Assembly: GCA_046091195.1 (NCBI GenBank)
Contig: JBJTBD010000065.1
Span: 1-58,123, forward strand
DNA from: Actinomycetota bacterium
Lineage (GTDB): Bacteria; Actinomycetota; Actinomycetes; S36-B12
DNA length: 58,123 bases
Direction of reading: 5' to 3'
Shown here: positions 27,051 through 37,791 of the stretch, piece after piece
Position numbering within the stretch: the stretch's first letter is position 1
How the letters are laid out: each line of letters starts with the position of its first letter
The notes under the pieces: generated by a model
Seen by the model: the letters and a program-made list of their open reading frames with translations, nothing else
What the model was told of the DNA's origin: nothing
Databases searched by the model: none
Made by a program: the position numbers and the translations under genes

Positions 27051-28139
27051 ATGACCGCACTTCAGCGCACTCCGCTCTTCGACCGGCACGTCCGTCTCGG
27101 CGCCAAGCTGGCCGACTTCGGCGGCTGGGAGATGCCCATCGAGTATTCGGGCACCGTGGGGGAGCACGCCGCCGTTCGTGAAGCGGTCGGGATCTTCGAT
27201 GTATCCCACATGGGGAAGGTGCGGATCACCGGTCCGGGCGCGCTCGATTTCGTCAACGGCATCGTCGCCAACGACGTACATCGCATCGCGGATGGTCAGG
27301 CCCAGTACTCGATGGTGTGCACCGAGGACGGCGGCATCATCGACGACCTCATCGTGTACCGGTTCGGCCCCGAGGACATCTTCATCGTTCCCAACGCGTC
27401 CAATGCCGCAGCGGTGGTCGCCGTCTTCCGGGCTGCCGTGCCACCCCAGATCGACATTGCCGATCAGCACCATGAACGGGGAATCATCGCGGTCCAGGGA
27501 CCTCGCTCTGCCGATGTATTGGAGGCGCTGGGTCTACCGACGGATCACGACTACATGGCGATGGTCGAGGCACCGTGGCGCGACTATCGGGTGCTCGTGT
27601 GTCGCACGGGGTACACCGGTGAGCGCGGTTTCGAACTGATCGCTCCGGCCGCGTCCCTGGGTGAGCTGTGGGATGCGCTGATGATGGAGGTCACCGCCGC
27701 GGGAGGTACGCCCGCAGGGCTCGGTGCGCGCGACACCTTGCGCACCGAGATGGGCTATCCGCTGCATGGCCAGGACATCTCGACCTCGACCACTCCGGTC
27801 GCGGCGGGGCTCGGCTGGGCCGTGGGCTGGGACAAGCCCGCATTTCACGGGCGCGATGCGCTGCTCGCGGTGAAGGCGGCCGGACCGGACCGGCGACTCC
27901 GCGGCGTGATGGTCGTGGGTCGCGGGATCCCGCGGCCGCACATGCCCGTTCACCGCGCGGGTGCGCAAGTGGGGGAGACCACGAGCGGAACCTTCTCTCC
28001 GACCCTGCGTCAGGGAATCGCGTTGGCCTACCTCCCCGTGGACATTGCGGTCGGTGACTCGGTGCAGGTGAATGTGCGTGGCACCCTGGTCGACGCCGAA
28101 GTTGTCACCCCGCCGTTCGTGCCCTCGCACGTGCGTTAG
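27051..28139 (+). CDS. gcvT: glycine cleavage system aminomethyltransferase
   Basis: TPLFDRHVRLGAKLADFGGWEMPIEY, GIFDVSHMGKVRITG and RTGYTGERGFELI. Confidence 0.9.
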   Translation: MTALQRTPLFDRHVRLGAKLADFGGWEMPIEYSGTVGEHAAVREAVGIFDVSHMGKVRITGPGALDFVNGIVANDVHRIADGQAQYSMVCTEDGGIIDDLIVYRFGPEDIFIVPNASNAAAVVAVFRAAVPPQIDIADQHHERGIIAVQGPRSADVLEALGLPTDHDYMAMVEAPWRDYRVLVCRTGYTGERGFELIAPAASLGELWDALMMEVTAAGGTPAGLGARDTLRTEMGYPLHGQDISTSTTPVAAGLGWAVGWDKPAFHGRDALLAVKAAGPDRRLRGVMVVGRGIPRPHMPVHRAGAQVGETTSGTFSPTLRQGIALAYLPVDIAVGDSVQVNVRGTLVDAEVVTPPFVPSHVR

Positions 28140-28807
28140 TCGATACCGATCAGCGCGGCGTGCACACGCGCGCCAATCTCCGAATGGGTGGGGAGTCCTA
28201 GGTCGAGTCCTGGATCGACTCCGATGCGCATCACCGCGGCCCGGATCGCGGGATCGTTGCTCGTCCCGGCCCCGTGCCACCACGTCTTCGCGCGGAACGA
28301 GAGCCGATCCGCGGCGACGGCGGCCGCCCACACGGTCAAGCCTTCGAGCAGAACGGGCGTTCGGCGTGCGCTCGCGGTCACGAGTGCACCGGCCACGTCC
28401 ATCGCATGCGGAACTGTGTCGAGGAGCGCCTCGATGTCACCCTGGTGGGAGCGAAGATCGGCCACCTGGTCCCGGACCAGGATCACCTGTTCCATCCACG
28501 CGGCATCTGTCATCCCGGTGGGTTGGGGAACGACTGCATTCGCCTCTGCGCCCGTCAGCAGAGCAATCAGTGCACGCTCATCCACGGCGTCGTCGGTGGC
28601 CGCTCGAATGACGACAAGGCGCGCACCGGAATCGATGGCCGCGTCGATTCCCGCCGGTTCCACTTCCACGAAGCTGGACGTAGTGACGTCGCGCTCCCGC
28701 AACCAGTGGTGATACGCGCTCAGAGTTGCGCCCTGCGATTCCTCTGCATCACCGGGGCGAGAAGGGGCGGACGTGATGACCGATGCACGGTCGGCGAGTG
28801 CGCCCAT
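28136..28807 (-). CDS. truncated, motif-degenerate CobT-like protein (nicotinate-nucleotide--DMB phosphoribosyltransferase family)
   Basis: 223 aa. From memory, collinear with the C-terminal two-thirds of CobT (ALIALLTG..., RRTPVLLEGLTVWAAAVAA, GVDPGLDLGL...). The GIGNTT-type and LGEGTGA-type motifs read AATDD and THSEIGA. Lies 9 nt downstream of the S-component gene, as the last gene of the riboswitch operon. Confidence 0.5.
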   Translation of the reverse strand: MGALADRASVITSAPSRPGDAEESQGATLSAYHHWLRERDVTTSSFVEVEPAGIDAAIDSGARLVVIRAATDDAVDERALIALLTGAEANAVVPQPTGMTDAAWMEQVILVRDQVADLRSHQGDIEALLDTVPHAMDVAGALVTASARRTPVLLEGLTVWAAAVAADRLSFRAKTWWHGAGTSNDPAIRAAVMRIGVDPGLDLGLPTHSEIGARVHAALIGID

Positions 28808-28816
28808 TTCTCGAGC

Positions 28817-29611
28817 CTACGAGGCTCCCACCATCGGCTGCGGCTGGAACCGGGCCCGGCGTGCGGCGCGGTGGAGGGCATCGAGGATCGAGCGACCTGC
28901 GATCAGAATGAGGATCGCGGCGAGCGCGGCACGGGGGATGTCGAAGCCCAAGGAGGTGGTGATCGTGAAGCGCCACCAGTGTTCGAGATTCACCACGACC
29001 CCGGCACCGGGCGCGAACGCCAGTTGCGGCGGCAGGGATGTGGCGAATGGCCAGAACCACAGGTTCATCACGAAGCCATAGGCGATGCAGGCACCCACCG
29101 CATAACCGGCGAGCAGCAGGACCTCGCGCCGTCCGGCCATCCGCGGAAGGAGGCCCGCACCCACTCCGACCCAGCCGGCCGCGATCATCTGGAACGGAAG
29201 CCACGGCCCCACACCGCCGGTGATGATCGCCGATGCCGCGAGTGACACCGTGCCGAGCACGAATCCGAAAGCGGGGCCCATGGCGCGGGCGCCGAGGATC
29301 AGGATGACCCAGATCGGCTCGATACCGGCGAGGCCGGCGCCCAATGGTCGTAGTGCGGTGATGATGGCGGCCAGAATCCCGAGCAGCGCGATCGCCTTTG
29401 CATCGATGCGCGCGTGGATGAACTCCGAGAACGTGATCGCCAGAACCAACACCATCACGAGTGCAAAGAGCCAGGGAACGATGGACGACTGCGATGCCAA
29501 CTGCGTTCCGGGTGTGATGAGAAACGGCCACAGGAACGCGAGCAGGCCAACTGCACTTGACACCACGAGGGCGACGGTCGTTGACGGGCGGAGCGCGATC
29601 GCGTGACTCAT
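28817..29611 (-). CDS. ECF transporter S (substrate-capture) component, unassigned specificity
   Basis: 264 aa, about 6-7 TM helices. The ATG overlaps the ATPase stop (ATGA). No recognisable CbrT, BioY, RibU or similar signature. Confidence 0.7.
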   Translation of the reverse strand: MSHAIALRPSTTVALVVSSAVGLLAFLWPFLITPGTQLASQSSIVPWLFALVMVLVLAITFSEFIHARIDAKAIALLGILAAIITALRPLGAGLAGIEPIWVILILGARAMGPAFGFVLGTVSLAASAIITGGVGPWLPFQMIAAGWVGVGAGLLPRMAGRREVLLLAGYAVGACIAYGFVMNLWFWPFATSLPPQLAFAPGAGVVVNLEHWWRFTITTSLGFDIPRAALAAILILIAGRSILDALHRAARRARFQPQPMVGAS

Positions 29612-31218
29612 GCGCGCCGCTCCTCAGCGAGGGCGGATTCGACGTCGGCAACCGTGAGCCAGATTCCGGGGGACATGATCTTGGTGACCTGCGGGGCGAA
29701 CATCGGTGAGGACGTCACCACCTCGGATGTCGGTCCGTGGGCGACCACCTCGCCGTCGGCGAGGATCAGCACGGTGTCGGCGACCTCGGCCACCAATTCG
29801 ACATCGTGAGTGGCGATCACGACGGCATGACCCTGCGATGCGAGATCTCGGAGGTGCTCGGCGAGGCGAGACTTCGTGGGGTAGTCGAGGCCCCGCGTCG
29901 GTTCGTCGAGTACGACGAGCGGTGGTCGCGACGCGAGGATGATCGCCAGAACCAGCGATACCTGTTGCCCGGCGGACAGGTCACGTGGGTGGGTGTCATC
30001 ACGGACATCCGGTGCGAGGAGTGCGAGGAGGGCGCGCGTCGTGCCCGCGAGGACCCGCGCATCGCGATCGGAGAGCCTGCACTCGTCTGCAACGGTGGCG
30101 CACTCGAGGAGATCGGTCGGGTTCTGGGGGACGAGTCCCACATGGCGTACGAGCTCGGGACCCTCGAGTCGCGAGGGATCGACCCCATCGACCTGCACGT
30201 GCCCGGTGGTCGGCGTGATCATGCCCGCGAGCAGGGAAAGCAGGGTGGACTTGCCGGCACCGTTGCGTCCCATCACGGCGAGCACCTGCCCACCGCGCAC
30301 CTCGATGTCCACACCGCGCAGTGCGGGGGTGCGGCCATAGGCGGCATCGACGCTGTCAATGGTTGCTCGTCGCACGCCGACGGGAGGGTGTGGCCGCTGC
30401 GAGGAGCGTCCTACGAGGATCCTGCGGAGTGGTTCGGCTTCACGTCGTGCATCGCGAATCGTGAGGGGGAGGGGGTTCCAGCCCGCAAGCCTGCCGAGTT
30501 CGACGACGGGCGGCGCGATGGGAGCGTCGGTCATCATTGCCTGCGGGATTCCCTCGCGCACACCACCCGGTTCGAGGACCAGGACGCGATCGACGTATTG
30601 CACGACCCGTTCAAGTCGGTGTTCCGCGATCACGGCGGTGACTCCGAGATCGTGGACGATGCGCTGGAGCGAGGCGAGAACCTCCTCTGCTGCTCCCGGG
30701 TCCAGTGCGGATGTCGGTTCGTCGAGTATCAGGACTCTCGGATGCGATGCCATCGCTGCACCGATCGCCACGCGCTGGCGTTGACCCCCGCTCAGGGCGA
30801 CCAGGGGCCTCGCCCTCACTTCGTCGAGTCCGAGCAGATCGAGGGTTTCCTCGACACGTCGACGCATCGTCGTGGGAGCGACGCCGAGACTCTCCATCGC
30901 GTAGGCAAGCTCCTCCTCGACGGTGTCCGTGACGAAGCCGCTCATTGGATCCTGCGGCACGTAGCCGACGACATCGGCGAGTTCCCGCGGGGGAGTGATG
31001 CGTATCGAGCGGCCGTGGACACGCACATCGCCGAGAAATTCACCGCCGGTGAAGTGTGGAACGAGCCCGTTGATGGCCCGCAGCAGGGTGGACTTGCCGC
31101 TTCCCGTTGTTCCTACGACAAGCGTGAACTCACCCTCCGGGATGCGCAGGCATACATCGCGCAGGATCCAGGGGGTGCCGGCGTCGTACCGGAAGGAGAC
31201 GTCATCGAACTCGATCAC
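29608..31218 (-). CDS. ECF transporter fused double ATPase (EcfA1-EcfA2)
   Basis: Two ABC cassettes: GTTGSGKST/LSGGQRQRV/LILDEPT/EHR and GRNGAGKST/LSAGQQVSL/VVLDEPT/THD. GTG start VIEFDDVSFRY (cac 31216-31218) overlaps the EcfT stop (GTGA). The track ORF running to 31407 is an over-extension. Confidence 0.85.
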   Translation of the reverse strand: MIEFDDVSFRYDAGTPWILRDVCLRIPEGEFTLVVGTTGSGKSTLLRAINGLVPHFTGGEFLGDVRVHGRSIRITPPRELADVVGYVPQDPMSGFVTDTVEEELAYAMESLGVAPTTMRRRVEETLDLLGLDEVRARPLVALSGGQRQRVAIGAAMASHPRVLILDEPTSALDPGAAEEVLASLQRIVHDLGVTAVIAEHRLERVVQYVDRVLVLEPGGVREGIPQAMMTDAPIAPPVVELGRLAGWNPLPLTIRDARREAEPLRRILVGRSSQRPHPPVGVRRATIDSVDAAYGRTPALRGVDIEVRGGQVLAVMGRNGAGKSTLLSLLAGMITPTTGHVQVDGVDPSRLEGPELVRHVGLVPQNPTDLLECATVADECRLSDRDARVLAGTTRALLALLAPDVRDDTHPRDLSAGQQVSLVLAIILASRPPLVVLDEPTRGLDYPTKSRLAEHLRDLASQGHAVVIATHDVELVAEVADTVLILADGEVVAHGPTSEVVTSSPMFAPQVTKIMSPGIWLTVADVESALAEERRA

Positions 31219-32327
31219 GGCGTCTCCTCGGGTCGTGAAGTGCTGAGGTAGCCCGCACATCCAGCGCTCACCAGCGCAAGAAGTGCGCCGATCGGGAGCG
31301 ACGGCCAGGTCGGAGGGTCCGTGGGCGGGTTCATGGCGAGGGGGCTCAGGGTTGTGGTGAGGACGCTGATCACCAGTGTCAGGGCTCCCGAGGCGACGAC
31401 GAGCCACTCCGATCGACCCCAGGGATCAGGCCGATACACCGTGCGATTGCGGTGCCGGGATGCGAGCACGAGCGCACCTGCGGCCGCGACGAGTGCCCCA
31501 GCGGCGAGACTCCAGGAGAGCACTGCGGGTACCTGTGCGGCCATGAGGCCAAAGAGCCCGATCGCACCCGCGATCACTGCGACTCCGATGAGCGCCACGA
31601 CGAAGCGACGTTCACGTGCGTGCGCCGTTCCCATGCGCCCGTATCCGCGGGCATCCATGGCGGCCGCGAGTTCGATCGACTGGTCGAGGGCGCTGTGCAG
31701 CACGGGGAGTGCCGCGCCTGCGAATGCGCGTGGTCCTCGAGTCGCGCGTCCGCGGAGACGCCGGGAAGTCCGTACACGTTCGATGTCGTGAACCAACTGC
31801 GGCGCGAACGTGAGGGCGATGACGATGCTGACACCGAATTCGTAGAGCGCACTGGGAAGAGACTTCAGGAGTCGACGCGGTGAGGCAAGGGCATTCGCCG
31901 CGCCGATGCACAGGATGATCGCGGCGAGCCGAAGTCCGTCGTAGAAGCCGGCGAGGATCACTTCGAGCACGACCGGACCACCGAGCCGAAGTCCTGCGGC
32001 CCACACAGGCAGTGTGATGCTCGGCAGGGTTGCGATCACCGTGTCGCCCCAGGCGCCACCCAGGAGCATCTGCGCGAGGACGCGGATCACCACGATCACC
32101 GCGGCGATGCGCAGGAAGAACGTGAACGTGTGTCCCCCGGGGCGTTCGCGCCGGTGGACCACGAGTGCGAGGACGCAGATCAACAGGATGAGGAACAGCG
32201 GGTTCGTGGTGCGGCTCGCGGTTACGGCGAGGAGGAGACTCCACAGCCACCATGCACCCGGGTGCGTCCAGCGCCCGAGACGTGCGGTGCCGACGATCGT
32301 GTCGGGTGCGATGGCGGTGGCGGTCAT
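31215..32327 (-). CDS. ecfT: energy-coupling factor transporter transmembrane component EcfT (CbiQ family)
   Basis: 370 aa multi-TM protein with cytoplasmic coupling-helix Arg motifs (RVRTSRRLRG, AAAMDARGYG). The ATG overlaps the upstream gene stop (ATGA). Confidence 0.8.
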   Translation of the reverse strand: MTATAIAPDTIVGTARLGRWTHPGAWWLWSLLLAVTASRTTNPLFLILLICVLALVVHRRERPGGHTFTFFLRIAAVIVVIRVLAQMLLGGAWGDTVIATLPSITLPVWAAGLRLGGPVVLEVILAGFYDGLRLAAIILCIGAANALASPRRLLKSLPSALYEFGVSIVIALTFAPQLVHDIERVRTSRRLRGRATRGPRAFAGAALPVLHSALDQSIELAAAMDARGYGRMGTAHARERRFVVALIGVAVIAGAIGLFGLMAAQVPAVLSWSLAAGALVAAAGALVLASRHRNRTVYRPDPWGRSEWLVVASGALTLVISVLTTTLSPLAMNPPTDPPTWPSLPIGALLALVSAGCAGYLSTSRPEETP

Positions 32328-32956
32328 CGTCGCCGCCAGACGTCAAGGCCGACGATCGCGGCGACCGCGAGCACGCCGAGGGTCCACCACGGTGTTCCGG
32401 ACGACTCCTCCGATGGAGCCTGGGCGACATCCGACGCCACGGGTGCGGGTTCCGGGGCGTCGATGATCGGCGCGCATTCCTCCCGCGGGAATCCATCGAT
32501 GCCGCAGAGGAAGCCGCCGTCGGCACGGACATCCGCGACAGCGGACAGGCTCTGGAACCCGTTGGCACCGGCGTCGACCACGGCGCATTCAGTCCTCGGT
32601 GCCGGTGGCGTCTCACCCGCGGGCGCGATGTCGGCCGTGCCGAAGTCGAGTACCACGGCGACGGCCTTCTGACCCTGGTTCGATGCGACGGTGCCACAGG
32701 CCTGCTGCCAGACCCGGCGTGGATCCAGGGTCGGTGGCCCACCTGCATCGGTCATGCCTTCCGACACCACGAAGGTCCACCCCTCGACATCCCCGTCCTG
32801 AGGGATCGTGGTTCCCGCTCCCTGGGCCGCGTACGACCAGGCACCGTCCGAGCCGTTCCAATACGACCAGTAGCGCGTCAGGCCCTCGGCGTGTGCGGTG
32901 GGTGCGCCGATGAAAGCCGCTGTCACGGCACAACCCACCAGCACACGACGGATCAC
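32324..32956 (-). CDS. secreted, C-terminally membrane-anchored protein (SCO2322-family-like)
   Basis: GTG start (cac 32954-32956) overlaps the upstream stop (GTGA). Signal peptide VIRRVLVGCAVTAAFIGAPTAHA, a Cys-containing domain (RYWSYWNGSDGAWSYAAQGAGTTIPQDGDVEGWTF...), a Pro/Glu/Ser linker, and a C-terminal TM segment plus RRR stop-transfer (WWTLGVLAVAAIVGLDVWRRR). Confidence 0.6.
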   Translation of the reverse strand: MIRRVLVGCAVTAAFIGAPTAHAEGLTRYWSYWNGSDGAWSYAAQGAGTTIPQDGDVEGWTFVVSEGMTDAGGPPTLDPRRVWQQACGTVASNQGQKAVAVVLDFGTADIAPAGETPPAPRTECAVVDAGANGFQSLSAVADVRADGGFLCGIDGFPREECAPIIDAPEPAPVASDVAQAPSEESSGTPWWTLGVLAVAAIVGLDVWRRR

Positions 32957-33972
32957 CGCATCGACCCCGTCAGCGCTGACGCGAGATTGACGCCACCGAA
33001 ATTGCGCGGCGATGTTCCCGTTGCTTCCGCCACCATGAGGAGGAGGCCGATCGCACCGGGATTGGCCACGCCACCCTTCAGCGCATAGTCGCGCGCTGCC
33101 GAAGTCAGTGTGCGCGTACCGGTTCGCACAGCGGCGCGGCCGACGCCGAGCTCGCTGAGTCCGATCACGGCGCGGGCGGTGGAGCCGAGGTCCTGACCGG
33201 TTCCGAGGTCGGATGTGAGCGAGCCTTTCGCGGTGATCTGCGACGCGAGATACCTCGCCAGGCGCGTGGGCATGCCCTTCCCGCACGGCGGATTCCGCGT
33301 CAGAGTCCCGGCCCGATCAATGGGAAGACTCGCCGCGACGCCGGCGATCGTCTCGGATGACGCGAGGGAATTCGCTGCGCCACCCGCCTGGTACGGGAGG
33401 GCTCCTGCCGATGCGCTCCCGCAGGGGAACTGCAGGGAGGCAAGGAAACGGACCGCATTGGGGACACGCGCACTGCGATCCTGCGGACTCACGGTGCGGA
33501 GTGCCGCGATCGCGAGGGCGGTGGAGTTGGCATCGGACTCGCCACCGGCGTAGTACGGCCAGCCCCAGTCGTCGTTCTGCGCATTGTTGAGCCACACGAC
33601 CGCCTTACGTGCCGCCGACTGCTCTCCGACGAGGGCGAGTGCTGTGGCTGCGGCGGCCGTGGAATTGACGTCCGGTCCGCTGAATGCGGTGGGATTCGAC
33701 GCGGTGCACGGCACCGTGGTGTTCGTGCGGTACGCCTCGAAGCTGCCGTCGGCACATTGCTGTCCCAGGAGCCAGGTGATCGCAGAAGGCGCGGGCGGAA
33801 GATCCACCGATGTCAGTCCCATGATGGCCAGGGACTGACGGAGGACGCCGTCGTAGACGGGGTCCGTTGATCCGTACAAGCCGCGATCCGCCGCATGGGC
33901 TGGTGCAGCGATGGTGATGGCTACGGCGGATGCCACACAGAGTGACAGTGCGCTGCGCAGAATGCGTGTCAT
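32953..33972 (-). CDS. secreted prenyltransferase/squalene-oxidase repeat (alpha/alpha-toroid) protein
   Basis: 339 aa. Signal peptide MTRILRSALSLCVASAVAITIAAPAHA. Repeated QW-like motifs (LLGQQCADGSFEA, LNNAQNDDWGWPYY, LASLQFPCGSASAGALPY). GAGAGGAA Shine-Dalgarno sequence upstream. First gene after the riboswitch. Confidence 0.75.
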   Translation of the reverse strand: MTRILRSALSLCVASAVAITIAAPAHAADRGLYGSTDPVYDGVLRQSLAIMGLTSVDLPPAPSAITWLLGQQCADGSFEAYRTNTTVPCTASNPTAFSGPDVNSTAAAATALALVGEQSAARKAVVWLNNAQNDDWGWPYYAGGESDANSTALAIAALRTVSPQDRSARVPNAVRFLASLQFPCGSASAGALPYQAGGAANSLASSETIAGVAASLPIDRAGTLTRNPPCGKGMPTRLARYLASQITAKGSLTSDLGTGQDLGSTARAVIGLSELGVGRAAVRTGTRTLTSAARDYALKGGVANPGAIGLLLMVAEATGTSPRNFGGVNLASALTGSMR

Positions 33973-34016
33973 GTGTTCCTCTCACTAAGCGGTCGGACAC
34001 GCTCTCGAGAGGGCCG

Positions 34017-34045
34017 AAAAAAGAGTCCCTTCCAATGGAAGGGAC
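34017..34045 (-). terminator. intrinsic terminator of the riboswitch expression platform
   Basis: GUCCCUUCC-AUU-GGAAGGGAC followed by UCUUUUUU. An upstream GGGACG (34070-34065) can pair with CGUCCC (34046-34041) as an antiterminator. Confidence 0.75.
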
Positions 34046-34190
34046 GTTCGGTTGCCCGAGCGCTCGTCCCGTTACCTCGACGGATGGAGCCGCTCGTACC
34101 TGCCAGGTGCTCCGACTCGCCGAAAGGCACACGGTTGCGGGACAGCGCCGGAATCTCACCGGACTTCCCCTGGACTTCAGGTACGTGGAT
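34017..34190 (-). promoter_or_regulatory. cobalamin (B12) riboswitch: aptamer 34095-34185 plus antiterminator/terminator expression platform
   Basis: Minus-strand RNA: P1 CGUACCUG...CAGGUACG. Core GGGGAAGUCCGGUGAGAUUCCGGCGCUGUCCCGCAACCGUG. B12-box-like GAGUCGGAGCACCUGGC. Followed by the terminator listed as its own feature. Confidence 0.85.
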
Positions 34191-34224: not shown

Positions 34225-34434
34225 TCATTCGGGCGGATGCAGACTCATCGGTCCGTAGACCTCACGTCCATCCTCCAGAAGGGACACCTGATCGACGCCC
34301 TCGCCCAGGAGATCGCGCCAAAATTCGCCGATCCACGACTCGGCATCTGCTTGGGAGGGGAAGGAGCCTCCAGGGTTGAGGGTCACGTTCACCGGCGTGT
34401 CGTCGAAGCGCAGGTACGACCAGGTCCAGGACAT
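34225..34434 (-). CDS. small hypothetical protein
   Basis: 69 aa (MSWTWSYLRFDDTPVNVTLNPGGSFPSQADAESWIGEFWRDLLGEGVDQVSLLEDGREVYGPMSLHPPE). GC3-rich. Begins 7 nt after the AKR stop. No family recognised. Confidence 0.5.
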   Translation of the reverse strand: MSWTWSYLRFDDTPVNVTLNPGGSFPSQADAESWIGEFWRDLLGEGVDQVSLLEDGREVYGPMSLHPPE

Positions 34435-34441
34435 GTCGCGC

Positions 34442-35440
34442 CTAGGGCCGGGTCGCTGGTGACGCAGTGCGCGTCGGGTCGGTGGTGATCAAGTCGCCCA
34501 GGATGTAGTCGATGGCACTGCGCACATCCTCGGGAAGAGTGATGCCCGACGCGGCCGCGTTCTCGGCGATCTGCTCGGGCCGAGACGCGCCCACGATCGC
34601 CGATGCGACATTGGAATTGCCCAGGACCCAGGCGATCGCCATCTGGGCCGGGGTCAGGCGCATGTCCGCGGCGATCGGGATGAGCTTCTGAACCGCATGA
34701 AGGATGTCGTCGTCCATGAATCGCTGGATGTAGGTCTGTCCTTCCCCGACCGACGCGCGGGAGTCACTCGGGGGTGGGGATCCGGGTACGTACTTACCGG
34801 TCAAAACCCCTTGGGCGATCGGAGACCACACGATCTGGCTGACCCCGAGTTCCTCGCACGTCGGGACAACCTCTCCTTCGATGACCCGCCACAGCATTGA
34901 GTACTGCGGTTGATTGCTGATGATTCTGGTGAGGCCCATCTCATCCGCGATGCGGATGGCTTCGCGGATTTCCTCGGCGCGCCATTCCGAGACGCCGATG
35001 TAGAGCACCTTCCCCTGGCGGACGAGATCGTCGAAGGCGCGCAGTGTCTCTTCAAGCGGAGTCTCATAATCGAAGCGGTGGGCTTGGTAGACGTCGATGT
35101 AGTCGGTGCGGAGACGCCGTAGCGACGCATGGCACGCCTCCATGATGTGCTTTCGGGACAGGCCCCGGTCGTTTACCCCTGGACCGACCGGCCAGTAGAT
35201 CTTGGTCAGGATCTCCAAGCCCTCGCGACGTTGACCATGGAGTGCATCGCCCATGAGTGCCTCAGCCTTGGTGGCGGCATAGACGTCAGCGGTGTCGAAG
35301 GTGGTGATACCCGCGTCGAGTGCTGCATGGATGGTTGCGGTTGCAGCGGCATCGTCGACCTGCGAGCCATGGGTAATCCAGTTGCCGAACGTGATCTCGC
35401 TGACCTTGAGGCCGCTGCGTCCGAGGTATCGGAACTCCAT
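34442..35440 (-). CDS. aldo/keto reductase
   Basis: MEFRYLGRSGLKVSEITFGNW, FDTADVYA, ILTKIYW and ISNQPQYSML. 332 aa. Confidence 0.9.
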   Translation of the reverse strand: MEFRYLGRSGLKVSEITFGNWITHGSQVDDAAATATIHAALDAGITTFDTADVYAATKAEALMGDALHGQRREGLEILTKIYWPVGPGVNDRGLSRKHIMEACHASLRRLRTDYIDVYQAHRFDYETPLEETLRAFDDLVRQGKVLYIGVSEWRAEEIREAIRIADEMGLTRIISNQPQYSMLWRVIEGEVVPTCEELGVSQIVWSPIAQGVLTGKYVPGSPPPSDSRASVGEGQTYIQRFMDDDILHAVQKLIPIAADMRLTPAQMAIAWVLGNSNVASAIVGASRPEQIAENAAASGITLPEDVRSAIDYILGDLITTDPTRTASPATRP

Positions 35441-36030
35441 CAGGACTTTGACTCCACCGGTGCGCCGCCGCGCTTGACGCGCGGGGGAGGCAGACGTAGC
35501 CGGCGGAATTGCAGGGTGCGGAGGAGTGCATAGAGGAGCAAACCCTTGCGTTCGACGGGGTCGGGGAACTGCTTCGCCGCCCGCGACCTCAGTGTGAGGA
35601 GCAGGATCGCAGTGTCGACGACGATGACGGCTACAAGGACGAAGAAGCCGAGTGACACCATCGACTGGATCTGGGGATTGGGGACGAATCCCAGAACGAG
35701 GACCGCGATGGCGATGAAGATGAAGAACTCGGCGACTGTGAAGCGCGAGTCGACGAAGTTGCGGGTGAATTGCTTCGCCGGGCCGCGGTCGCGTAGGGGC
35801 ATGAATCGCTCGTCACCGGCCAACATGCCTTGGCGGGCGCGTACTCGATCCTGCCTGTCGCGCTCGCGCGCTGCCTTCTTGCCTTCCTTCGTCCCACGCG
35901 GTGTGCGAAGCCCCTGCTTGCGGGCAGCCTCGGCCTCCTTGCGACTTGGAGTGGGTCGGCCTTTGGGGGCACGCGGATCCTCGGAGGGGGTTTCCGTCGG
36001 GGATTCCTCGGGTGAGCGGCGGCCGAACAT
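35440..36030 (-). CDS. DUF3043 domain-containing membrane protein
   Basis: Basic N-terminal region (KGRPTPSRKEAEAARK...), RDRGPAKQFTRNFVDSR, then two TM helices. Typical actinobacterial DUF3043 layout. Confidence 0.8.
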   Translation of the reverse strand: MFGRRSPEESPTETPSEDPRAPKGRPTPSRKEAEAARKQGLRTPRGTKEGKKAARERDRQDRVRARQGMLAGDERFMPLRDRGPAKQFTRNFVDSRFTVAEFFIFIAIAVLVLGFVPNPQIQSMVSLGFFVLVAVIVVDTAILLLTLRSRAAKQFPDPVERKGLLLYALLRTLQFRRLRLPPPRVKRGGAPVESKS

Positions 36031-36122
36031 GACCGGCAGCGTATCTCGGAGCGCGTGAGCGCTGCCTCCCGTACAGTGGAAGCGAAGCCCGCAGGGGGCA
36101 TGCAGAAACGAGAGATAGAGGA

Positions 36123-36857
36123 GTGGCCATGGGCCTCTGGCAGCGCTTCACGATGATCTTCAAGTCCAAGGCGAATCGCGCCCTTGATCGGGCGGAGGAT
36201 CCGCGGGAGACCCTCGACTACTCCTACGAGAAGCAGTTGGAGCTTCTCCAGAAGGTGCGCCGCGGAGTGGCCGACGTTGCCACCAGTCGCAAGCGCCTGG
36301 AACTCCAGATCCAGGGTCTAGGCCAGCAGGAGGCGAAGCTCGAGCAGCAGGCACGTGCCGCTCTCGGCCAGGGACGCGAGGACCTCGCGCGCGAAGCACT
36401 CACCCGGCGCAGTGGCCTCCACCAGCAGGTCGCCGATCTCCAGGCGCAGTTGGCTCAACTCGCCGAGCAGGAGGAGAAGCTCACGGTTGCGGCTCAGCAA
36501 TTGCAGACCAAGGTCGAGCAGTTCCGCACGCGCAAGGAAACCATCAAGGCCACCTACTCCGCCGCTGAGGCACAGACCAAGATCAACGAAGCGTTCACCG
36601 GGATCTCGAGTGAACTCGGCGATGTCGGCCTGGCGATCCAGCGTGCTGAAGACAAAACCGCGCAGATGCAGGCCCGGGCGGGGGCTATCGACGAGCTCAT
36701 GGCCTCGGGTGCTCTCGAAGATGTGTCCGGGATGGGCAAGGACTCCCTCACCATTGAACTGGAGCGGATGGCGAGCGAATCCGAGGTTGAAAACCAGTTG
36801 GCCGCGCTGAAGCGCGAAGTCGGTCCCGGCTCGTCGCCCCAGGAACTCGAGAAGTAG
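36123..36857 (+). CDS. pspA: PspA/IM30 family protein
   Basis: MGLWQRFTMIFKSKANRALDRAEDPRETLDYSYEKQLELLQKVRR followed by long coiled-coil heptads. 244 aa. Confidence 0.85.
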   Translation: MAMGLWQRFTMIFKSKANRALDRAEDPRETLDYSYEKQLELLQKVRRGVADVATSRKRLELQIQGLGQQEAKLEQQARAALGQGREDLAREALTRRSGLHQQVADLQAQLAQLAEQEEKLTVAAQQLQTKVEQFRTRKETIKATYSAAEAQTKINEAFTGISSELGDVGLAIQRAEDKTAQMQARAGAIDELMASGALEDVSGMGKDSLTIELERMASESEVENQLAALKREVGPGSSPQELEK

Positions 36858-36885
36858 TAGCTGCGCGCGTTCTGCGGGAGGGGTA

Positions 36886-37791
36886 GTGGCAAAGACCAGG
36901 TACGGCATCGACCGTGGGCTGACCCGTCGGATGTTCGGGACCATGTTCGGTCTCGGACTGATGTACGTGGTGCTCGCGGCTCTTCTCTACGCCCTGGGGT
37001 TCAGTGCGATCTTCGTACTGGGCATCAGCGCCGCGCTCCTGTTCGGGCAGTGGTGGTTCTCGGATTCCCTGGCAATGTCCGCCATGCGCGCTGTGGTGGT
37101 GACACCCGAACAGGCACCGCAGTTGCACGCGATGGTCGACCGCCTCTGCCTGCTGGCCGACATGGAGAAGCCGCGGATTGGGATCGCCGATTCAGATGTC
37201 CCCAACGCCTTCGCCACCGGCCGCACCCCGAGTCGCTCCGTCGTCGTGGTGACCACCGGCCTGCTGCGTCGACTCGACCCCGATGAACTCGAGGGTGTGC
37301 TTGCGCACGAGTTGTCCCACGTAGCCCACCGCGATGTCACGGTCATGACGATCGCCTCCTTCACCGCGATCGTCGCCGGGTTCCTTGCCCGCAGTTTCAT
37401 GTGGGGCTCGATGATGCGGGACAACCGGAACCAGAACGCGGCGGTCATGTTCATCGTCGTCATGCTGGTCAGCGTCGTCGTCTACTTCATCTCCTATCTC
37501 CTGATCAATGGCCTGTCGAGGTACCGGGAGTTAGGAGCGGACCGCGGAGGGGCGCTGATCACAGGTAAGCCCACTGCGCTCGCGAACGCCCTGGTCAAGA
37601 TCACCGGTGACATGGCGCAGATCCCCACCCGCGATATCCGGCAGATGGAGCCGGTCAGCAACCTCGCCTTCGCTCCCGCGGTTGCGAGCAAGAAGGGCTT
37701 CACCCTCGAGGGGCTTATGTCCACACACCCCTCGCTGGAGAAGCGCCTGGAGAACCTCGCGAAGGTGGCCAACGAGCTCGGCCAGCGGTAG
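36886..37791 (+). CDS. htpX: zinc metalloprotease HtpX (M48)
   Basis: GTG start after GGGAGGGG. HELSHVAHRD zinc motif, downstream RYRELGADR, and four TM segments. Confidence 0.9.
   Translation: MAKTRYGIDRGLTRRMFGTMFGLGLMYVVLAALLYALGFSAIFVLGISAALLFGQWWFSDSLAMSAMRAVVVTPEQAPQLHAMVDRLCLLADMEKPRIGIADSDVPNAFATGRTPSRSVVVVTTGLLRRLDPDELEGVLAHELSHVAHRDVTVMTIASFTAIVAGFLARSFMWGSMMRDNRNQNAAVMFIVVMLVSVVVYFISYLLINGLSRYRELGADRGGALITGKPTALANALVKITGDMAQIPTRDIRQMEPVSNLAFAPAVASKKGFTLEGLMSTHPSLEKRLENLAKVANELGQR

What the first reader, a model, noticed from the sequence alone, without database searches (positions are those of the whole stretch)
32324..33972. Possible 'split transcobalamin': alpha/alpha-barrel secreted protein plus a small anchored domain with a DUF4430-like motif
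**What is established or visible.**
- Eukaryotic B12 carriers (transcobalamin, intrinsic factor) consist of an alpha6/alpha6 barrel plus a small beta domain. The beta domain is homologous to bacterial DUF4430.
- Gene 1 here encodes a signal-peptide-bearing alpha/alpha-toroid protein with QW-like repeats (LLGQQCADGSFEA, LNNAQNDDWGWPYY, LASLQFPCGS..GALPY).
- Gene 2 encodes a signal-peptide protein whose N-terminal segment is RYWSYWNGSDGAWSYAAQGAGTTIPQDGDVEGWTF. From memory this resembles the DUF4430/transcobalamin beta-domain signature (W.Y.vNG....G...y.l.dGD.i.W.y).
- Gene 2 continues with a Cys-containing region, a Pro/Glu/Ser linker and a C-terminal TM anchor (WWTLGVLAVAAIVGLDVWRRR).
- The two genes overlap by GTGA.

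**Inference.** The pair could form a two-chain, membrane-tethered corrinoid-binding module handing substrate to the ECF S component. The order of DUF4430-like sub-motifs may be permuted, but that is only an impression.
Basis: inference. Interest (0 to 1): 0.8.

Follow-up and report, generated by a model that had tools for sequence, protein, structure and literature searches.

The report
Surface helper proteins of B12 importer
Two small secreted proteins sit at the front of a vitamin-B12-sensing operon for a B12 importer in a high-GC actinobacterium. They probably catch B12-like molecules outside the cell, but the claim that the second one is a transcobalamin-type domain has only weak support.

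Summary
**Observation: confirmed.**
- Gene 1 (33972-32953, minus strand) is a secreted alpha/alpha toroid.
- Gene 2 (32956-32324) overlaps it by GTGA. It has a signal peptide, a 140-residue four-cysteine domain, a linker and a C-terminal anchor.

**Context not cited in this finding.**
- An AdoCbl riboswitch with a terminator lies upstream.
- Four translationally coupled genes follow: ECF T, fused A-A', S, and a short CobT-like gene.
- The S-component profile matches CbrT of the solved B12 transporter ECF-CbrT (E=2.4e-9).
- Six related loci keep the riboswitch. Three add CobU-CobT-CobS.

A corrinoid importer is therefore well supported.

**Gene 2.**
- It belongs to the named but uncharacterised SCO2322 family (PF28005, NF040672).
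- It is not a detectable member of DUF4430: no Pfam hit in 55 members, and no Foldseek hit.
- Profile-profile comparison gives a weak, reproducible similarity in circularly permuted order (P about 0.002 and 0.09). Part of this signal is compositional.
- A Firmicute operon has riboswitch, DUF4430, T, A-A', S in the same order, so SCO2322 sits where DUF4430 sits.

**Verdict.**
- "Split transcobalamin-like corrinoid catcher" is plausible as a mode of action.
- Family membership is unproven and binding is untested.
- Precedents exist: Burroughs 2007, and L. sakei Lsa1839/1840.
- I class it as a new variant of a known kind.

The parts
34097..34183 (-). AdoCbl-II (cobalamin) riboswitch aptamer at the head of the operon
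   Evidence: Rfam RF01689 scores 51.3 bits against a gathering score of 36.5, E=1.4e-9, over the full model 1-81. A cobalamin-clan riboswitch lies at the same place in L001, L003, L005, L126 and L127.
34016..34045 (-). Terminator-like hairpin plus U-tract between aptamer and gene 1; probable expression platform
   Evidence: GTCCCTTCC-ATT-GGAAGGGAC followed by TCTTTTTT: 9 pairs, 6 of them G-C. The hairpin also forms in the minimum-free-energy fold of the leader. The off-switch function is inferred.
32953..33972 (-). Gene 1: secreted alpha/alpha-toroid protein (339 aa), related to the SCO2321 family but without a membrane anchor
   Evidence: - Pfam Prenyltrans and SQHop_cyclase hits.
- NCBIfam SCO2321_fam scores 221.5 bits, below the 300 cut-off, and matches profile positions 11-352 of 405.
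- AF2 pLDDT 91.7.
- Foldseek finds toroids.
- The mature protein has no DxDD motif and no histidine. Four cysteines are invariant.
32324..32956 (-). Gene 2: SCO2322-family protein (210 aa) with signal peptide, 140-aa four-Cys domain, acidic/Pro linker and C-terminal hydrophobic anchor ending RRR
   Evidence: - NCBIfam NF040672 scores 147.4 bits against a cut-off of 85.
- Precomputed Pfam family is PF28005 'SCO2322'.
- AF2 domain pLDDT about 96.
- Alignment A1 shows invariant D104, G106, A111, C124, R144, C151, G155, P157 and C161, and nearly invariant (>=90%) C87; C87 is invariant in the domain alignment A3.
31215..32327 (-). ECF T component (CbiQ family), start overlaps gene 2 stop (ATGA)
   Evidence: Pfam CbiQ, 8.6e-6. 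Junction read.
29608..31218 (-). Fused ECF A-A' ATPase (536 aa from the GTG at 31218, overlapping the T stop by GTGA)
   Evidence: Two ABC_tran domains. Start inferred from the 536-aa orthologue and the junction. It is 32% identical over its full length to the fused ATPase of the Firmicute DUF4430 operon.
28817..29611 (-). ECF S component, CbrT-like
   Evidence: - Pfam ECF_trnsprt, 8e-8.
- The profile of 6 orthologues hits 6fnp_A at E=2.4e-9, covering residues 5-170 of 182.
- 6FNP is ECF-CbrT, shown to transport cobalamin and cobinamide (PMC5997447).
- That chain A is CbrT is my inference from its length and from the S-type profile that found it.
28136..28807 (-). Short CobT-like protein (C-terminal half of DBI_PRT only), last gene of the cluster
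   Evidence: Pfam DBI_PRT positions 171-310 of 329, E=5.7e-17. It is conserved as a separate short paralogue.

Best explanation
**Proposal.** The two genes encode extracytoplasmic accessory proteins of a dedicated, B12-riboswitch-repressed ECF importer for corrinoids (cobalamin and/or cobinamide). The membrane S component of that importer is a CbrT relative.

**How it would work.**
- Gene 2 (SCO2322 family) is tethered to the outer face of the membrane by its C-terminal anchor.
- Gene 1 is a soluble toroid made in step with gene 2 through translational coupling.
- Together, or gene 2 alone, they capture scarce corrinoid at the cell surface and raise its local concentration for, or pass it to, the S component.
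- When AdoCbl is plentiful, the riboswitch terminates transcription.

**Shown.** Operon anatomy, riboswitch, CbrT-like S component, secreted or anchored topology (read from the sequence), toroid fold, and conservation of the arrangement.

**Inferred.** That the two proteins bind corrinoid, that they form a complex, and that they hand substrate to the S component.

**Weakly supported.** That the SCO2322 domain is a circularly permuted relative of the DUF4430/transcobalamin beta (SLBB) domain.
For: **Regulation**
- AdoCbl-II riboswitch plus terminator upstream.
- A cobalamin-clan riboswitch lies at the same position in all 5 other loci whose DNA could be read. The L003 match scores 31.0 bits, 0.5 below the gathering score.

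**Transporter**
- The S-component profile hits the CbrT chain of ECF-CbrT at E=2.4e-9. The next hit is an uncharacterised membrane protein (5d0y_A, probably an S component) at 0.16, then FolT (5d3m_C) at 9.8.
- ECF-CbrT transports cobalamin and cobinamide, not hemin (PMC5997447).
- Three relatives place CobU-CobT-CobS (nucleotide-loop assembly, cobinamide salvage) directly after the S gene.

**Coupling of the two genes**
- All junctions from gene 1 to S are 4-nt overlaps.
- The gene 1/gene 2 overlap recurs in 5 of 6 other loci that carry both genes.
- Streptomyces and Longivirga toroids carry their own C-terminal anchor. The window's gene 1 lacks one, so only gene 2 is tethered here.

**Position equivalent to DUF4430**
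- Firmicute locus L023 has riboswitch, DUF4430 protein, CbiQ, fused A-A', S in the same order.
- Its components are homologous to the window's: S 2e-12, T 1e-7, A-A' 4e-83.
- 80 of 120 DUF4430 loci hold a fused A-A' homologue within 8 kb.
- 5 of 18 scanned have a cobalamin riboswitch upstream on the same strand.

**Toroid link**
- The gene 1 profile hits toroid domains that are fused to DUF4430 in Firmicute surface proteins (1e-12 to 8e-6).

**Sequence similarity of SCO2322 to DUF4430**
- hhalign matches the core at P=0.0022. The score is 23.9 against 11.0 +/- 2.3 (maximum 18.8) in 200 column shuffles.
- The N-terminal hairpin matches the DUF4430 C-terminal GWMYKVNG...GD.V.W.Y region at P=0.099, that is, in permuted order.
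- A 219-sequence alignment reproduces both matches.

**Precedent**
- Burroughs 2007 (PMC1796856).
- L. sakei Lsa1839/1840 (bioRxiv 10.1101/864751).
Against: **No direct evidence.** There is no binding or complex data of any kind.

**Gene 2 versus DUF4430**
- No PF14478 hit in 55 members.
- No transcobalamin or beta-grasp hit by Foldseek, best E=2.1.
- No such hit by profile search of the PDB.
- hhalign probability is 13% or less.
- Permuting the alignment lengthens the match to 112-116 columns but does not raise the score.
- Column-shuffled profiles still favour DUF4430 ORFs somewhat. The mean differences are 0.3-1.8, against 3.75 for the real profile. One shuffle put 7 DUF4430 ORFs in its top 10.

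**Gene 1**
- It is closer in sequence to squalene-hopene cyclase (74.6 bits) than to the DUF4430-linked toroids (40.7 bits).
- It shows no link to PF01122.

**Toroid may be optional.** One contig has SCO2322 plus the ECF genes without any toroid gene, and L023 has none either.

**Accessory proteins may not be needed.** ECF-CbrT works without accessory proteins in proteoliposomes (PMC5997447).
Confidence: 0.6

Rival explanations
1. The system imports cobalt (or another metal ion), and the two surface proteins are metal-capture or assembly factors, like NikK/NikL or CbiN in Nik/Cbi ECF systems.
For: - B12 riboswitches commonly control cobalt transporters (general knowledge; PMC2667541).
- The T component is in the family named CbiQ.
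- Gene 2 has four conserved cysteines, three invariant and one nearly invariant.
Against: - The S component matches PF12822 and CbrT. No CbiM-family match was found in the Pfam scan.
- The mature proteins contain no histidine, and gene 2 has a single methionine. The cysteines of secreted proteins are more likely in disulfides.
- The neighbours in relatives are CobU/T/S (corrinoid salvage). No cobalt chelatase genes appear among them.
Confidence: 0.08
2. The transporter and its helpers take up a different B12-related or tetrapyrrole compound: heme as proposed for the L. sakei system, or the lower ligand or alpha-ribazole.
For: - The L. sakei lsa1836-1840 ECF-like operon has separate transcobalamin alpha-like and beta-like genes and was linked to heme uptake (bioRxiv 10.1101/864751).
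- A short CobT-like gene ends the window's operon, and full CobT follows in relatives.
Against: - The riboswitch senses cobalamin.
- The nearest solved S component is CbrT, for which hemin did not compete (PMC5997447).
- A 30-kDa toroid plus a second domain seems oversized for a benzimidazole. This point is inference.
Confidence: 0.12
3. The two proteins do not bind the substrate. Gene 1 is a surface enzyme (a toroid hydrolase or cyclase), or the pair stabilises or positions the ECF complex in the envelope.
For: - The nearest sequence and fold relatives of gene 1 are enzymes: terpene cyclases, prenyltransferase beta, and the toroid hydrolase MmpH.
- The gene 2 fold has no recognised match.
Against: - Gene 1 lacks a DxDD motif. 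The mature protein has no histidine, which the prenyltransferase zinc site (Asp, Cys, His from my own knowledge) would need.
- It is secreted, away from isoprenoid diphosphate substrates.
- It is tightly coupled to a B12 importer in every locus examined.
- Non-enzymatic ligand-binding toroids exist (transcobalamin; PMC1796856).
Confidence: 0.15

Closest known systems
ECF-CbrT vitamin B12 transporter of Lactobacillus delbrueckii (PDB 6FNP; PMC5997447)
   Same: - It is an ECF-type importer.
- The S-component profile of the window's family hits CbrT at E=2.4e-9 over nearly the whole chain.
- It is linked to B12 use.
   Different: - CbrT shares a general group II ECF module. It has no dedicated T/A-A' genes, no riboswitch described in that paper, and no extracytoplasmic partner proteins.
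- Here the module is dedicated, the ATPases are fused, and two surface proteins precede it.
Gram-positive toroid + SLBB (DUF4430) surface proteins encoded with CbiO/CbiQ genes, predicted B12 scavengers (Burroughs et al. 2007, PMC1796856)
   Same: - The proteins are secreted or anchored.
- The operon carries ECF genes and is linked to B12.
- The gene 1 profile hits the toroids of such proteins.
- The operon order is identical to L023.
   Different: - The small domain here is SCO2322 (PF28005), not PF14478. Similarity is only weak and in permuted order.
- The toroid and the small domain are separate chains.
Lactobacillus sakei Lsa1839/Lsa1840 with ECF-like Lsa1836-1838 (bioRxiv 10.1101/864751)
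   Same: - Two separate genes for a transcobalamin alpha-like and a beta-like protein sit next to ECF genes.
- So a "split transcobalamin" has already been described.
   Different: - Those proteins were described as clearly homologous to transcobalamin subunits, and the system was assigned to heme uptake.
- Here the beta-like partner is not recognisably homologous, and the regulation points to cobalamin.
Mammalian transcobalamin / intrinsic factor / haptocorrin
   Same: An alpha/alpha toroid plus a small alpha/beta domain, extracellular, with a corrinoid context.
   Different: - Those are single chains.
- The window's proteins reach neither PF01122 nor PF14478.
- No Foldseek match of gene 2 to the beta domain.
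BtuF of BtuCD-F
   Same: It plays the functional role proposed here: an extracytoplasmic corrinoid catcher feeding an ABC importer.
   Different: It has an unrelated fold and serves a different transporter class. No sequence relation was seen.

Membership tests
Transcobalamin family (Pfam Cobalamin_bind PF01122 + DUF4430 PF14478) | N-terminal domain is an alpha6/alpha6 toroid | tested here: met
   The gene 1 AF2 model has 13 helices, pLDDT 91.7. Foldseek matches toroid proteins at 1e-8 to 1e-5. This holds at fold level only.
Transcobalamin family (Pfam Cobalamin_bind PF01122 + DUF4430 PF14478) | Sequence membership of the toroid in PF01122 | tested here: not met
   None of 53 family members hits PF01122 at E<=10. 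The profile search of the PDB finds no transcobalamin, intrinsic factor or haptocorrin. None is among the top 50 Foldseek matches.
Transcobalamin family (Pfam Cobalamin_bind PF01122 + DUF4430 PF14478) | Small domain belongs to DUF4430 (PF14478) | tested here: not met
   None of 55 SCO2322 members hits PF14478 at E<=10. The controls do hit it: human transcobalamin beta domain at 1.4e-6, and bacterial DUF4430 proteins at 1e-13 to 1e-21.
Transcobalamin family (Pfam Cobalamin_bind PF01122 + DUF4430 PF14478) | Small domain has the SLBB beta-grasp fold | tested here: inconclusive
   - Foldseek: best E=2.1, no beta-grasp match.
- hhalign against DUF4430: P=0.0022 and 0.099, in permuted order.
- The order of secondary-structure elements (b-b-a-b-b-a-b-b) is compatible with a permuted beta-grasp.
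- Model coordinates could not be inspected.
Transcobalamin family (Pfam Cobalamin_bind PF01122 + DUF4430 PF14478) | Both domains sandwich one corrinoid | not testable with these tools
   No multimer prediction or binding assay was available.
SCO2322 family (NCBIfam NF040672; Pfam PF28005) | Score above the curated cut-off over the whole domain | tested here: met
   147.4 bits against a cut-off of 85, profile positions 5-141 of 144. All 76 homologues carry PF28005.
SCO2321 family membrane protein (NCBIfam NF053823, equivalog) | Score above the cut-off, and a C-terminal membrane anchor | tested here: not met
   221.5 bits against a cut-off of 300. The match ends at profile position 352 of 405. 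The Streptomyces and Longivirga proteins have the anchor; gene 1 ends without one. It is homologous but truncated.
Class II terpene cyclases / protein prenyltransferase beta subunits | Catalytic DxDD motif, or the zinc ligands Asp, Cys and His | tested here: not met
   There is no D.DD string, and the only histidine lies in the signal peptide.
CbrT-type ECF S components (vitamin B12) | Sequence similarity to CbrT over the full S-component length | tested here: met
   Profile A4 against 6fnp_A: E=2.4e-9, 40.1 bits, chain residues 5-170 of 182. The single window sequence alone finds nothing.
Cobalamin riboswitch (Rfam clan CL00101) | Score above the gathering threshold, upstream of the operon on the same strand | tested here: met
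   RF01689 scores 51.3 bits against 36.5.

The most novel reading that the evidence does not exclude
The SCO2322 domain is a circularly permuted descendant of the DUF4430/SLBB corrinoid-binding domain. With a separately encoded toroid it forms a two-chain, membrane-tethered, transcobalamin-like receptor that feeds a CbrT-type ECF importer. This would be widespread in Actinomycetota (1866 clusters at 50% identity). It would also be a case of an ECF transporter that depends on extracytoplasmic substrate-capture proteins.
Probability: 0.3. Interest if true: 0.7.

Novelty: new variant of a known kind. Interest (0 to 1): 0.55.

Why it matters
**For the ECF field.** ECF transporters are taught as working without extracytoplasmic binding proteins. 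A large, conserved actinobacterial family in which a B12 importer is always preceded by one or two surface proteins would be a testable exception.

**For B12 uptake in Actinomycetota.** It would describe how these Gram-positive bacteria (Streptomyces among them) collect corrinoids. The only solved relative detected here is the lactobacillar ECF-CbrT.

**For two uncharacterised families.** It would give a function to SCO2321 and SCO2322, for which I found no functional study in the open-access literature searched.

**For evolution.** If the permuted-SLBB reading holds, it adds a structural variant to the lineage from which animal transcobalamins are thought to derive (PMC1796856).

Tried and rejected
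**Gene 2 against known sequences and folds**
- Foldseek of the gene 2 model against the PDB gave nothing below E=2.1.
- phmmer and profile searches of PDB sequences returned only chance hits.
- A Pfam scan of all 55 members had no DUF4430 hit. One isolated NQRA_SLBB hit at 0.085 is not significant across 55 scans.

**Search for a natural toroid-SCO2322 fusion (Rosetta stone) among the 150 best representatives**
- P0275 joins only the first 145 residues of a toroid to SCO2322. I read it as an assembly or gene-call artefact.
- The N-terminal part of P0254 is unrelated to the toroid.

**Tests of the permutation**
- Cyclic shifts of the alignment showed no sharp optimum at the predicted cut.
- The scan of 651 ORFs looked striking: 9 of the top 11 were DUF4430 proteins. 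Shuffled-profile controls showed a compositional component, so I down-weighted it.

**Literature**
- Searches for SCO2321-2324 found nothing relevant.
- Rodionov 2009 (PMC2612444) is not held in the library.

**The 320-aa ORF**
- The 320-aa ORF at 32324..33286 was rejected as the gene 2 product. It overlaps gene 1 in another frame, and homologues are 205-250 aa.
Full report
**1. What is there**

The finding covers two genes on the minus strand.

- Gene 1 (33972..32953, 339 aa) begins with a typical Sec signal, MTRILRSALSLCVASAVAITIAAPAHA|AD, and carries the quoted QW-like strings.
- Gene 2 does not use the long 320-aa ORF. It starts at the GTG at 32956, which overlaps the gene 1 stop as GTGA. 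The resulting 210 aa match homologues of 205-221 aa.
- Gene 2 has a signal peptide (AHA|EG), a conserved domain at residues 26-165, a Pro/Glu/Ser linker, and a hydrophobic C-terminal segment ending RRR.

**2. Surroundings**

The pair heads a translationally coupled operon.

- The junctions gene 2/T, T/A and A/S are ATGA, GTGA and ATGA.
- Downstream lie an ECF T component (CbiQ), a fused A-A' ATPase, and an ECF S component (PF12822). After a 9-nt gap comes a 223-aa protein that matches only the C-terminal half of CobT.
- Upstream of gene 1 lies an AdoCbl-II riboswitch aptamer (34183-34097, 51.3 bits). A 9-bp hairpin with a U-tract follows at 34045-34016.

**3. Conservation**

The gene 2 family is large. 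A profile of the domain finds 1866 representatives at 50% identity or less, 365 of them below 1e-30. The named members are Streptomyces, Longivirga and Acidothermaceae.

Six further loci carry toroid, SCO2322, T, A-A' and S in this order.
- In L005 the ECF genes look degenerate.
- Five of the six have the same 4-nt overlap between the first two genes.
- All five whose DNA could be read have a cobalamin-clan riboswitch in front of the toroid gene. One of these scores 0.5 bit under the gathering score.
- Three continue with a metallo-beta-lactamase-fold/CobU fusion, CobT and CobS. These are the enzymes that rebuild cobalamin from cobinamide.

One metagenomic contig has SCO2322 and the ECF genes without a toroid gene.

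**4. Substrate**

- The window's S component alone finds nothing in the PDB.
- A profile of six orthologues hits chain A of 6FNP at E=2.4e-9 over residues 5-170 of 182. The next hit is an uncharacterised membrane protein (5d0y_A) at 0.16, and the folate S component FolT (5d3m_C) follows at 9.8.
- 6FNP is ECF-CbrT, shown experimentally to transport cobalamin and cobinamide, with no competition by hemin (PMC5997447).
- Together with the riboswitch and the CobU/T/S neighbours, this makes a corrinoid importer the well-supported reading of the transporter.

**5. Gene 1**

- The AF2 model is confident (pLDDT 91.7) and is an alpha/alpha toroid.
- Foldseek and profile searches place it nearest to class II terpene cyclases, complement TED domains and prenyltransferase beta subunits.
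- It is unlikely to be such an enzyme. It is secreted, has no DxDD motif, and the mature chain has no histidine.
- It scores 221.5 bits on NCBIfam SCO2321_fam, under the 300-bit cut-off. It lacks the C-terminal anchor that the Streptomyces and Longivirga proteins carry.
- No link to transcobalamin was found at sequence level or in the 50 Foldseek matches listed.
- Its profile does hit the toroid domains that sit next to DUF4430 in large Firmicute surface proteins (L076 1e-12, L107 2e-7, L028 3e-6, L067 8e-6).
- It scores higher still on squalene-hopene cyclase, so this link is not specific.

**6. Gene 2 and the DUF4430 question**

Gene 2 is a member of NCBIfam SCO2322_fam (147 bits, cut-off 85) and of Pfam PF28005 'SCO2322'. 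Both are names without a function.

The domain model is confident (pLDDT about 96). Its element order is b(26-34), b(57-65), a(79-87), b(96-104), b(121-128), a(133-140), b(143-146), b(149-153).

The direct membership tests are negative:
- no PF14478 hit in 55 members at E<=10;
- no relevant PDB sequence hit;
- no Foldseek hit.

To test the recalled motif, I fetched real DUF4430 proteins by scanning genomes for GWMYKVNG. Pfam confirmed them, along with the human transcobalamin beta domain.

hhalign of the SCO2322 alignment against 31 non-redundant DUF4430 domains gives two pieces.
- SCO2322 domain residues 98-137 match the strand-helix-strand core of DUF4430 (P=0.0022, probability 13%). The score of 23.9 compares with 11.0 +/- 2.3 (maximum 18.8) in 200 column shuffles.
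- The N-terminal hairpin matches the C-terminal GWMYKVNG...GD.V.W.Y region (P=0.099).
- The order is what a circular permutation predicts.
- A permuted alignment runs collinearly over 112-116 columns.
- A 219-sequence alignment reproduces both pieces.

Three caveats apply.
- Permuting does not raise the score, and cyclic shifts show no sharp optimum.
- In a scan of 651 ORFs, DUF4430 proteins fill the top ranks.
- Shuffled profiles keep part of that preference, so composition (W, Y, G, D) contributes.

I rate true homology at roughly one in three.

**7. Positional evidence**

- Oscillospiraceae locus L023 has a cobalamin riboswitch, a 190-aa DUF4430 protein, CbiQ, a fused A-A' and S, in exactly the window's order.
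- Its components are homologous to the window's: S 37% identity, 2e-12; T 1e-7; A-A' 32% identity over the full length.
- 80 of 120 DUF4430 loci hold such a fused ATPase within 8 kb.
- SCO2322 therefore occupies the operon slot of DUF4430 in a homologous transporter.
- In both lineages the small protein is the constant partner and the toroid is optional.

**8. Comparison with what is known**

- Burroughs et al. 2007 predicted that Gram-positive toroid+SLBB surface proteins encoded with CbiO/CbiQ scavenge B12.
- A split alpha-like/beta-like pair next to ECF genes was described in L. sakei and assigned to heme.
- The idea of the finding is therefore not new in kind.
- What is new is the actinobacterial version. 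It has a different, possibly permuted, small domain. It is under riboswitch control and works with a CbrT-like S component. No functional study of either family turned up in the searches I made.

**9. Verdict**

The mode of action (surface corrinoid capture for an ECF importer) is the best explanation, at a confidence of about 0.6.
- Membership of gene 2 in DUF4430/transcobalamin is not established.
- Classification: new variant of a known kind. Interest: 0.55.

Noticed in passing
window 28136-28807 (-): A 223-aa protein equals only the C-terminal half of CobT (DBI_PRT positions 171-310 of 329). It is a conserved separate paralogue: it is 40% identical to L005:15601-16347, which lies beside a full-length CobT. 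So it is not a fresh truncation. Its role is unknown.
   Followed up: partly
window 34225-34434 (-): A 69-aa ORF ends 40 nt upstream of the riboswitch. It is conserved at 53-58% identity at the same position in L003, L126 and L005, with motifs WTW.Y...FPSQADAE.W.GE and YGPMSLHP. No family match was sought.
   Followed up: partly
L003 12590-15887; L005 12293-15567; L127 6329-9553: Relatives carry a metallo-beta-lactamase-fold/CobU fusion, CobT and CobS directly after the ECF S gene. The window lacks these genes at this place, and gcvT (27051-28139, +) follows instead. This hints at a lineage that imports complete cobalamin rather than salvaging cobinamide, or that keeps those genes elsewhere.
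   Followed up: no
metagenomic contig of P0029; L023 1927-6065: SCO2322 (in the actinobacterial contig) or DUF4430 (in the Firmicute) occurs with the ECF genes but without any toroid gene. The small protein looks like the constant partner of the transporter and the toroid like an optional one.
   Followed up: partly
window 34442-37791: The neighbourhood of aldo/keto reductase, DUF3043, PspA and M48 peptidase is syntenic with Longivirga (L003) and several MAG contigs. This helps place the window among non-Streptomyces Actinomycetes.
   Followed up: no
L048 (+ strand, 189-aa ORF) and L045 (334-aa ORF): These are second, divergent DUF4430-like proteins (GWMGTIDDW..., NDWFYYVNG...) in loci that already hold one DUF4430 gene. 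This agrees with the paralogous pairs noted by Burroughs 2007.
   Followed up: no
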